Part shown: positions 41,689 to 41,750 of the stretch, in pieces
Numbering within the stretch: the first letter of the stretch is position 1
How the letters are laid out: every line of letters begins with the position of its first letter
Sequence record: OR532834.1
Strand: one strand, 5' to 3'
Length of the DNA: 50,973 bases
DNA from: Klebsiella phage RCIP0040
The notes under the pieces: generated by a model
Database searches by the model: none
What the model was told of the DNA's origin: nothing
What the model saw: only the letters and a program-made list of their open reading frames with translations
Made by a program: the position numbers and the translations under genes

Positions 41689-41750
41689 TGTGATTGCATC
41701 TGATTTACTGGTGATTACTTTTGACGATTCATGATTGATTGTGATTGCTT
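41689..41750. repeat. six tandem 10-11-bp TGATTnnnTn iteron-like repeats
   Basis: TGATTGCATC / TGATTTACTGG / TGATTACTTT / TGACGATTCA / TGATTGATTG / TGATTGCTTC in strict ~10-bp register. Confidence 0.7.

What the first reader, a model, noticed from the sequence alone, without database searches (positions are those of the whole stretch)
41689..41750. Six 10-bp-phased TGATTG-type iteron-like repeats next to the right inverted-repeat copy
TGATTGCATC, TGATTTACTGG, TGATTACTTT, TGACGATTCA, TGATTGATTG and TGATTGCTTC follow one another with one helical turn periodicity, immediately upstream (about 170 bp) of the AT-rich 85-bp element. Phased iterons next to an AT-rich unwinding element is the classic layout of a replication origin or a nucleoprotein-complex regulatory site.

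The only ORF covering the iterons is 41638-41925 (minus strand). It has odd composition (Cys/His-rich, no RBS) and may be spurious.
Basis: seen in the sequence. Interest (0 to 1): 0.6.

Follow-up and report, generated by a model that had tools for sequence, protein, structure and literature searches.

The report
Phased TGATT repeats: probable packaging site
A real, conserved row of six TGATT motifs, spaced one DNA turn apart between two divergent gene blocks of a T1-like Klebsiella phage, sits where related phages start packaging their DNA, so it is more likely the packaging signal than a replication origin.

Summary
The window is a complete Webervirus genome (T1-like Klebsiella phage, Drexlerviridae). 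The repeats are real. Units start at 41691, 41701, 41712, 41722, 41732 and 41742, and five of the six carry TGATT. No other 5-mer in the genome forms such a phased chain, and shuffled genomes never do.

The array lies in a 650-bp non-coding region between divergent early operons. This region is conserved across the genus even where the neighbouring gene is replaced. Motif bases are far more conserved than spacers, and some lineages flip individual motifs in place. The ORF over the repeats is broken in most relatives, and no conserved RNA fold was found. This points to a DNA site for a protein.

The origin reading has no specific support. The same TGATT/AATCA array sits at the homologous place across the family: 254 motifs against 43 expected in 47 loci. 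In T1, TLS and SU57 the assigned packaging (pac) end lies inside or beside it. The small terminase belongs to the P22 gp3 family, and the P22 pac site contains AGATTT.

Best reading: the pac recognition array for the small terminase (confidence about 0.5). Rivals are an operator for the early promoters (about 0.25) and origin iterons (about 0.12). None of this has been tested experimentally in this phage.

The parts
41691..41751 (+). Array of six 10/11-bp-phased units. There are five TGATT(G/T/A) units and one TGACGATT unit, plus an extra overlapping TGATT at 41736.
   Evidence: Sequence. Unique phased chain in the genome. Motif columns are 24/25 invariant against 16/31 for spacer columns in 24 relatives. 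Orientation flips occur in L007/L008/L032.
41588..41642 (-). Leftward copy of the T1-family 'DR' element (AATAGCAC-N3-..-TAAAAC, a hairpin, then a TATAGT -10-like hexamer). It sits just upstream of the first leftward gene and 50-110 bp downstream (leftward) of the array.
   Evidence: Inverted-repeat match to the + strand DR copies (I6). DR consensus and unknown function are described for TLS/T1 (PMC11447400).
41640..41686 (.). Nested inverted repeats between the DR and the array: CTATTCC (41640-41646), TTATTCC (41657-41663), GGAATAG (41672-41678) and GGAATAG (41680-41686).
   Evidence: tandem GGAATAGT. Conserved in all relatives and in T1.
41364..41567 (-). First gene of the leftward operon (MAHMMKK..., phrog_14613, unknown function). 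Different Webervirus lineages carry a different gene at this position.
41638..41925 (-). Spurious ORF over the repeats.
   Evidence: Early stops and frame-breaking indels in most of 27 relatives. No Pfam hit was found for the overlapping + strand ORF 41731-41949, whose frame also breaks in most relatives.
41894..42012 (.). AT-rich element, the right arm of the inverted repeat with 25031-25149. It is bracketed by ATCTTAC (41904-41910) and GTAAGAT (42016-42022). It is not part of the array but is part of the same conserved control region.
42146..42174 (+). Sigma-70-like promoter for the rightward early operon (TTGACG-17-TAAGAT here; TTGACG-17-TATTAT in most relatives).
42220..42750 (+). First gene of the rightward operon (176 aa, phrog_10392, unknown function). 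No detectable homologue in T1 or TLS.
50440..50964 (+). Small terminase (TerS) of the P22 gp3 family. It is the proposed binder of the array and lies 8.7 kb downstream in the proposed packaging direction.
   Evidence: PF16677 E=4e-12. PDB 3P9A E=2.7e-15. 47-50% identity among window/T1/TLS.
26295..26696 (-). Conserved Cro/YdaS-like helix-turn-helix (HTH) regulator encoded between the primase and helicase genes. It is the alternative candidate binder.
   Evidence: 54-58% identity to T1 ST23 and TLS gp57.

Best explanation
**Proposal.** The TGATT array is the recognition part of the phage's pac site. This is where the P22-gp3-type small terminase (TerS, window 50440-50964) would assemble on concatemeric DNA and direct the large terminase (window 1-1605) to make the first cut. 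Headful packaging would then run rightward, through the small early genes towards the terminase and structural genes.

**How the phasing fits.** Short motifs placed one helical turn apart lie on one face of the DNA. Successive subunits of a TerS ring or oligomer could each contact one motif while the DNA bends or wraps around the protein.

**Shown here.**
- The array is real, unique in the genome, non-coding and constrained at the motif bases.
- It is conserved across the Drexlerviridae.
- In three relatives it lies at or beside the position assigned as the pac end.
- TerS belongs to the P22 gp3 family.

**Inferred, not shown.**
- That TerS, rather than another protein, binds TGATT.
- That cleavage in this phage occurs at about 41690-41830.
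- The wrapping geometry.
For: **1. The array behaves as a DNA site for a protein.**
- It is the only phased 5-mer chain in the genome.
- Motif columns are 24/25 invariant and spacer columns 16/31.
- Motifs flip orientation in place in some lineages.
- The overlapping ORFs are broken in relatives.
- No conserved RNA fold was found on either strand, and there is no Rfam or tRNA hit.

**2. The position is homologous to assigned pac ends in relatives.**
- T1: the record opens inside the same divergent intergenic region and annotates 1..2800 as the terminal repeat. Coordinate 1 splits GTGATT|G of its TGATTG array. The flanking DR, TATTCC and GGAATA motifs are the same as in the window.
- TLS: coordinate 1 is the authors' pac assignment. 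It rests on a submolar 6-kb pac-HindIII fragment, and the first HindIII site is at 5876. It lies inside a GATT array, with motifs at -13, 1, 9, 19, 24, 29 and 34.
- SU57: the end chosen from PhageTerm plus a step in read coverage lies about 60-70 nt to the right of its array. The authors state that the pac site of T1-like phages lies in this untranslated region.

**3. The array is conserved family-wide.** In 47 distinct Drexlerviridae loci, the 200 nt to the right of the leftward DR hold 254 TGATT/AATCA motifs against 42.7 expected. Thirty-six of the 47 loci have 4 or more. It is also the top TGATT cluster genome-wide in the window and TLS, and tied for top in T1.

**4. A conserved candidate binder exists.**
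- TerS is in the P22 gp3 family and is 47-50% identical among the three genera.
- The P22 pac site, GAAGATTTATCTGAAGTCGTTA, contains AGATTT (quoted in PMC11447400).

**5. The packaging mode fits.** Weberviruses are reported as circularly permuted with redundant ends, i.e. headful packaging.
Against: - No packaging end has been mapped in any Webervirus. PhageTerm gave no defined termini for them.
- The TLS coordinate was refined by eye from its resemblance to P22 pac after gel-level mapping. That mapping resolves only to some hundreds of bp and does not separate the array from the neighbouring promoter or AT-rich elements.
- How T1 coordinate 1 was fixed could not be checked, because the paper is not held. 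Many later records simply copy T1's orientation.
- Some lineages (L103, L106, L109) carry the array in the opposite orientation. This is awkward for a signal that should set a packaging direction.
- P22 pac is a single 22-bp site inside the terS gene, not a repeat array 8 kb upstream of it.
- A second conserved DNA-binding protein, the ST23-like HTH regulator, could equally be the binder.
- The array also sits upstream of a promoter-like DR element, which suits a transcriptional role.
Confidence: 0.5

Rival explanations
1. The array is an operator or architectural site for transcription. A phage regulator (for example the conserved Cro/YdaS-like HTH protein at 26295-26696) or a host protein would polymerise on the phased motifs. 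This would repress, activate or bend the DNA between the divergent early promoters: the leftward DR-type promoter at 41588-41642 and the rightward promoters at about 42013-42174. The mechanism would resemble the way Apl/Cox/Xis-type proteins act on phased direct repeats.
For: - The array lies 50-110 bp upstream of the leftward DR element and between divergent transcription units.
- Phased short direct repeats with a tolerated change of orientation suit filament-forming or bending regulators.
- The HTH regulator is conserved at 54-58% identity across the same genera that keep the motif.
- In T1 the array lies between two tandem leftward DR units.
Against: - Only one such array exists per genome, whereas about 10-20 DR promoter-like elements have none.
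- This reading does not explain why three independently assigned genome ends fall in or beside the array.
- No binding data exist.
Confidence: 0.25
2. This is the first reader's idea: the array is a set of replication-origin iterons. An initiator would bind the repeats and open the nearby AT-rich element, which would serve as the unwinding region.
For: - The origin of T1-like phages is unknown, and no iterons were reported in TLS.
- An extremely AT-rich element lies about 180 bp away. It is the AT-richest 80-nt window of the genome.
- The cumulative GC skew has a minimum near 41-44 kb. That minimum also coincides with the switch in gene orientation.
Against: - The core motif is 5-6 bp in 10-11-bp units, not 17-22-bp iterons.
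- There is no adjacent initiator gene. The neighbouring genes are unannotated and not conserved with the array.
- The replication genes lie 5-16 kb away.
- The second AT-rich copy, next to the primase gene, lacks TGATT repeats.
- Both AT-rich copies are flanked by another repeat, GTAAGAT, with 14 of its 19 genomic copies there. Its sequence changes between genera, as would be expected of initiator sites.
- From my own knowledge of the older literature (not checked here), T1 DNA synthesis needs the host elongation functions but not the host initiation functions.
Confidence: 0.12
3. The repeats are a by-product of coding sequence (a repetitive peptide in ORF 41638-41925(-) or 41731-41949(+)), or they belong to a structured or small RNA.
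For: - ORFs exist on both strands in this particular genome.
- Some database records annotate small hypothetical proteins in this region.
Against: - The minus-strand ORF has early stops in most relatives. The plus-strand ORF changes frame through 1-2-nt indels and ends at different places.
- There are no Pfam hits.
- Consensus folding of 27 sequences gives weak energies and almost no covariation on either strand.
- There is no Rfam family or tRNA hit.
Confidence: 0.03

Closest known systems
P22 pac site recognised by gp3 (small terminase)
   Same: The TerS here is a gp3 homologue. P22 pac (GAAGATTTATCTGAAGTCGTTA, quoted) shares the GATT(T) core. Both phages use headful packaging from a unique site.
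   Different: P22 pac is a single asymmetric 22-bp site inside the terS gene. Here there is an array of six phased short motifs, 8.7 kb upstream of terS, in a non-coding control region.
pac region of phages T1, TLS and SU57 (Drexlerviridae)
   Same: The location is homologous: the divergent intergenic region to the right of the leftward DR. The motif family (TGATT/GATT) is the same. The genome ends assigned in those phages lie in or beside the array.
   Different: Those papers place pac only roughly, or pick a single AGATTT by eye. None describes a conserved phased array. Copy number, spacing and even orientation differ between genera.
P1 pac (clusters of TGATCA/G hexamers bound by PacA); SPP1 pacL/pacR; lambda cosB R sites. 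This row rests on my own knowledge and was not checked here.
   Same: These are packaging signals built from several short repeats of one motif, on which the small terminase assembles and bends the DNA. The P1 hexamer differs from TGATTG at one or two positions.
   Different: The terminase families are unrelated. P1 hexamers carry Dam sites (GATC) that time cleavage, whereas the Webervirus array contains no GATC.
Iteron origins (lambda ori, P4 ori, iteron plasmids)
   Same: They have direct repeats near an AT-rich stretch.
   Different: Iterons are longer. They are usually spaced two helical turns apart and lie beside or inside the initiator gene. None of this holds here.
Apl/Cox/Xis-type phased operator arrays (phages 186, P2, lambda). 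This row rests on my own knowledge.
   Same: They consist of five to seven short direct repeats, one helical turn apart, between divergent promoters, bound cooperatively by a small protein that bends the DNA.
   Different: Those systems belong to temperate phages and act in the lysis-lysogeny switch or in excision. No such protein has been identified here.

Membership tests
pac site of a headful-packaging phage | The phage packages by the headful mechanism and encodes a small terminase. | tested here: met
   TerS is in the gp3 family and a TerL is present. Weberviruses are reported as permuted with redundant ends.
pac site of a headful-packaging phage | The site is unique in the genome. | tested here: met
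   There is a single TGATT cluster: 6 copies in 80 nt against 2 in the next best window. It is the only phased chain in the genome.
pac site of a headful-packaging phage | The site coincides with the end of the first headful (the site of the initial cut). | tested here: inconclusive
   This is met only by homology. The T1, TLS and SU57 ends lie in or beside the homologous array. No end has been mapped for any Webervirus.
pac site of a headful-packaging phage | The site is bound by the small terminase and is sufficient for packaging or transduction when moved elsewhere. | not testable with these tools
   This needs EMSA or footprinting, plus plasmid transduction assays.
iteron-type replication origin | Several direct repeats of about 17-22 bp that are bound by an initiator. 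| tested here: not met
   The conserved core is 5-6 bp and the unit 10-11 bp. The spacers vary freely.
iteron-type replication origin | An initiator gene lies adjacent to the repeats or contains them. | tested here: not met
   The flanking genes have no known function. They are replaced between lineages or absent from T1 and TLS. The primase and helicase genes lie 5-16 kb away.
iteron-type replication origin | An adjacent AT-rich unwinding element is functionally coupled to the repeats. | tested here: inconclusive
   An AT-rich element lies about 180 bp away. However, its second copy has no TGATT array, and both copies are flanked by a different repeat.
iteron-type replication origin | Replication initiates at the site. 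| not testable with these tools
   This needs marker-frequency analysis, 2D gels or a plasmid replication assay.
T1-family 21-nt 'DR' intergenic repeats (aaATAGCACnnnTTGnTAAAA) | A match to the DR consensus, about 76 nt upstream of a start codon, oriented in the direction of transcription. | tested here: not met
   The TGATT units do not match the DR. A true DR copy lies next to the array at 41588-41642(-).
protein-coding repeat | The reading frame is conserved in relatives. | tested here: not met
   Stops and frameshifts occur in most of 27 relatives.

The most novel reading that the evidence does not exclude
The whole 650-bp conserved region may be a combined control hub of T1-like phages. 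In this reading the TGATT array nucleates a protein filament or ring that serves both packaging initiation and origin firing or early-promoter shut-off at the neighbouring AT-rich element. The same site would then couple the end of early transcription and replication to the start of packaging. A narrower version is that the array really is the long-sought origin of the T1 family.
Probability: 0.12. Interest if true: 0.6.

Novelty: new member of a known kind. Interest (0 to 1): 0.4.

Why it matters
**What is open in the literature.** Papers on T1-like phages state that neither the pac sequence nor the replication origin is defined. The SU57 paper says its pac site was not identified. The TLS paper assigned pac from resemblance to a hexamer and reports no iterons.

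**What this adds.** A conserved, phased TGATT array at the assigned packaging end gives a concrete sequence to test across the whole family. The family includes the many Weberviruses being developed for Klebsiella therapy.

**Practical uses if the pac reading is confirmed.**
- It would allow rational genome orientation and annotation.
- It would help predict and control generalised transduction by therapeutic phages.
- It would allow packageable plasmids to be built for Klebsiella.

**Consequence for the origin search.** The result redirects that search to the two AT-rich elements and their genus-specific flanking repeats.

Tried and rejected
- **Coding explanation, rejected.** ORF 41638-41925(-) and ORF 41731-41949(+) are not conserved as reading frames and have no Pfam hits.
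- **RNA explanation, rejected.** There are no Rfam hits and no tRNA. Consensus folding of 27 relatives on both strands gave weak energies and negligible covariation.
- **Host-factor sites, no convincing match.** No IHF consensus (WATCAANNNNTTR) was found in 41575-42220. The only GATC in that region is at 41607, and there is none in the array. By eye, DnaA boxes match at only 5-6 of 9 positions.
- **Adjacent gene as cognate binder, rejected.** The 176-aa protein at 42220-42750 and the 67-aa protein encoded at 41364-41567(-) have no family annotation. They have no homologues in T1 or TLS, although the array is conserved in both.
- **Public record and contig ends as evidence for physical ends, judged uninformative.** Many Webervirus assemblies break at about 41954-41979, inside the AT-rich inverted repeat. 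This most likely reflects assembly breaks or laboratory conventions. Many Tunavirus records simply copy T1's coordinate 1.
- **Literature searches, negative.** Searches for Webervirus promoters, origins or pac mapping found nothing specific. The T1 genome paper is not held.
- **Covariation between TerS and the motif, not informative.** The motif is essentially invariant across the family, and TerS and the HTH regulator are both conserved.

Full report
**Identity of the window.** The 50,973-bp window is a complete genome of a Webervirus, a T1-like Klebsiella siphovirus of the family Drexlerviridae. The stretch 41300-42500 is 98% identical to phages KLPN3, RCIP0056 and Kpph1, and 281 phage records match it. 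The window opens at the large terminase gene (1-1605). The small terminase gene is at 50440-50964.

**Position of the finding.** The finding lies in a non-coding stretch of about 650 bp between two divergent gene blocks.
- The leftward block starts with the ATG at 41567(-), preceded by the ribosome-binding site GGAG.
- The rightward block starts with the ATG at 42220(+), preceded by GGGGGAG.

The six units start at 41691, 41701, 41712, 41722, 41732 and 41742.
- Five of them begin with TGATT, and the fourth is TGACGATT.
- TGATT is the only one of all 1024 5-mers that forms a chain of four or more copies at 10/11-bp steps anywhere in the genome.
- In 300 dinucleotide-preserving shuffles the TGATT chain never exceeded 3 copies. 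In 30 shuffles the best chain of any 5-mer reached 3-4 copies.
- The 80-nt window at 41691 holds six TGATT, against two in the next best window.

**It is a constrained DNA element, not a gene or a folded RNA.** I aligned the intergenic region of 26 related contigs with the window.
- The whole region from about 41586 to 42220 is conserved even where the leftward neighbouring gene is a different gene altogether.
- Within the array, 24 of 25 motif columns are invariant among 24 sequences, against 16 of 31 spacer columns.
- In the L007/L008/L032 lineage, unit 2 is replaced in place by the inverted AATCA and unit 4 by AATCAATCA. This creates palindromes such as GTGATTGcactCAATCAC. The motif survives and only its orientation changes, which fits protein recognition and is hard to reconcile with coding.
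- The minus-strand ORF 41638-41925 has early stops or frameshifts in most relatives.
- The plus-strand ORF 41731-41949 changes frame through 1-2-nt indels and has no Pfam hit.
- Consensus folding on both strands gives weak energies and almost no covariation.
- Rfam and ARAGORN find nothing.

**The neighbourhood.** Several other conserved elements surround the array.
- *DR element.* Immediately to the left, at 41588-41642(-), is a copy of a repeated element found about a dozen times in the genome: AATAGCAC...TTGnTAAAAC, then a variable hairpin, then a TATAGT-like hexamer. This is the 21-nt 'DR' described for TLS, T1 and Rtp. Its authors call its function unknown (PMC11447400).
- *Nested inverted repeats.* Between the DR and the array lie CTATTCC / TTATTCC / GGAATAG / GGAATAG.
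- *AT-rich element.* About 180 bp to the right of the array is the AT-rich element at 41894-42012. It is one arm of a 119-nt inverted repeat, and the other arm (25031-25149) lies between the exonuclease and primase genes.
- *GTAAGAT repeat.* Both AT-rich arms are bracketed by GTAAGAT/ATCTTAC. Fourteen of its 19 genomic copies lie in these two regions, against about 4 copies expected genome-wide.
- *Rightward promoter.* A good sigma-70-like promoter (TTGACG-17-TAAGAT here; TATTAT in most relatives) precedes the rightward operon at 42146-42174.

**Relatives outside the genus change the picture.**
- *T1.* The T1 record (NC_005833) opens inside the homologous divergent intergenic region. Its last gene starts at 48674(-), its first gene starts at 539(+), and bases 1..2800 are annotated as a repeat region, i.e. 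the terminal redundancy. Read across the junction, T1 has the same layout as the window: a leftward DR, two TATTCC, two GGAATA and then TGATTG motifs. Coordinate 1 falls within one of them (GTGATT|G).
- *TLS.* The authors mapped pac through a submolar 6-kb pac-HindIII fragment and set coordinate 1 at an AGATTT, chosen for its likeness to the P22 pac site. The first HindIII site is indeed at 5876. Coordinate 1 lies inside a GATT array, with motifs at -13, 1, 9, 19, 24, 29 and 34.
- *SU57.* The end chosen from PhageTerm and an abrupt change in read coverage lies about 60-70 nt to the right of its array. The authors state that the pac site of T1-like phages lies in this untranslated region but has not been identified.

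**The array is a family-wide feature.**
- I used a TerS alignment to fetch 79 loci with 10 kb of upstream DNA.
- In many lineages whose TerS is only 46-59% identical to the window's, the densest TGATT cluster upstream of terS sits right beside the leftward DR.
- Over 47 distinct loci, the 200 nt to the right of the DR hold 254 TGATT/AATCA motifs against 42.7 expected. Thirty-six of the 47 loci have four or more.
- Spacings of 10, 11 and 20 bp are the most common. Copy number and arrangement differ between lineages.
- Some lineages carry the array inverted, as TAATCA phased at 10-11 bp.

**Who binds it?** Two DNA-binding proteins are conserved across the same range as the motif.
- The small terminase is one. 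It belongs to the P22 gp3 family (PF16677, E=4e-12; PDB 3P9A, E=2.7e-15) and is 47-50% identical among the window, T1 and TLS.
- The other is a Cro/YdaS-like HTH regulator encoded between the primase and helicase genes, 54-58% identical.
- The first genes flanking the region are not conserved between genera, so they are poor candidates.
- The P22 pac site recognised by gp3 is GAAGATTTATCTGAAGTCGTTA, which shares the GATT(T) core.
- A natural pairing, and only an inference, is TerS with the single-copy array and the HTH regulator with the many DR elements.

**Verdict on function.** The best-supported reading is that the array is the recognition part of pac. TerS would assemble on phased motifs lying on one face of the helix and direct the first cut near or within the array. 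By analogy this would fall at about 41690-41830. Headful packaging would then proceed rightward. I put this at about 0.5, for these reasons:
- No end has been mapped in any Webervirus.
- The TLS coordinate was refined by eye.
- The basis of T1's coordinate 1 could not be checked.
- The orientation of the array is not fixed across the family.
- Its position upstream of a promoter-like element suits a transcriptional operator equally well (about 0.25).

**The origin reading.** I put this at about 0.12.
- The unit is too short for classical iterons.
- There is no adjacent initiator gene.
- The AT-rich element's second copy lacks the array.
- The AT-rich elements have their own flanking repeats, whose sequence changes between genera: GTAAGAT here, GTGTAACA in T1 and GTGAACA in TLS. 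This is the behaviour expected of initiator or regulator sites that co-evolve with their protein.
- In the window, T1 and TLS, the two AT-richest 80-nt windows of the genome are at the same two homologous places.
- If one is looking for the origin of T1-like phages, these elements are the better candidates.

**Novelty.** The rough location of pac in T1-like phages is in the literature. In the papers I could search and read, I found no description of a conserved, helically phased TGATT array as its sequence basis. The finding is therefore a new member of a known kind, a repeat-built packaging signal. It is of moderate interest, and its practical value lies in annotating and engineering therapeutic Klebsiella phages.

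Noticed in passing
window 29222, 30541, 43048, 43335, 43902, 45060, 45658, 46530, 48143 (+); 40602 and 41642 (-): There are about a dozen copies of the T1-family 'DR' (AATAGCAC-N3-TTGnTAAAAC). Each is followed by a hairpin of variable sequence and, 22 nt after TTGnTA, by a TATAGT/TATTAT-like hexamer, often with TGn in front. The hairpin either precedes or encloses the -10-like hexamer. The published function is 'unknown' (PMC11447400). The fixed 22-nt spacing is too long for an ordinary -35/-10 promoter.
   Followed up: partly
window 24870-25234 and 41904-42174: GTAAGAT/ATCTTAC occurs 19 times in the genome, and 14 of these lie in two intergenic regions, where they bracket the two arms of the AT-rich inverted repeat (25031-25149 / 41894-42012). 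T1 (GTGTAACA) and TLS (GTGAACA) have analogous but different short repeats at the homologous places. In all three genomes these two places hold the two AT-richest 80-nt windows. They are candidate origin(s) or strong early promoters with operators.
   Followed up: partly
window 35216-36784 (-): This is the DUF3987-type helicase. Its last ~90 residues are much more divergent between the window, T1 and TLS (35-47% identity) than its core (60-85%). This would fit a C-terminal DNA-specificity domain that co-varies with the genus-specific repeats, as in P4 alpha (own knowledge). It has not been tested.
   Followed up: partly
window 41640-41686: Nested inverted repeats CTATTCC / TTATTCC / GGAATAG / GGAATAG lie between the DR and the TGATT array. 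They are conserved in all Weberviruses and, as TATTCC x2 / GGAATA x2, in T1 and its relatives. They are absent from TLS.
   Followed up: partly
window 41785-41845: This is a very highly conserved block (91-95% column identity). It contains TGCAACGAATTGCA, which is a palindrome and, in most relatives, reads TTGC-N6-TTGC. It also contains a run of ATGCA/TGCAC motifs. No function has been assigned.
   Followed up: no
window 41887-41901 and 42204-42218: AATGTGGGGGAG(G/A)AA occurs twice. The second copy is the ribosome-binding site of the first rightward gene. The first has no start codon after it in this genome.
   Followed up: no
window 41364-41567 (-) and relatives L002-L033: The first leftward gene is replaced by unrelated genes in different Webervirus lineages, while the adjoining intergenic region stays conserved. 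A mosaic boundary therefore falls exactly at the promoter-like DR element.
   Followed up: partly
window about 41954-41979: Many public Webervirus assemblies and IMG/VR contigs begin or end inside the AT-rich element (cp5, mtp29, mtp10, mtp21, Roth74, L004, L012). This probably reflects assembly breaks at the inverted repeat or at low-coverage AT-rich DNA, not physical ends.
   Followed up: partly
loci L103, L106, L109 (other Drexlerviridae): In these lineages the array is present in the opposite orientation, as TAATCA phased at 10-11 bp. The motif and the phasing are conserved, but the polarity is not.
   Followed up: partly
window 26295-26717: The Cro/YdaS-like regulator gene (minus strand) and the SF2 helicase gene (plus strand) start only about 20 nt apart. 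Their divergent promoters must therefore lie within coding sequence.
   Followed up: no
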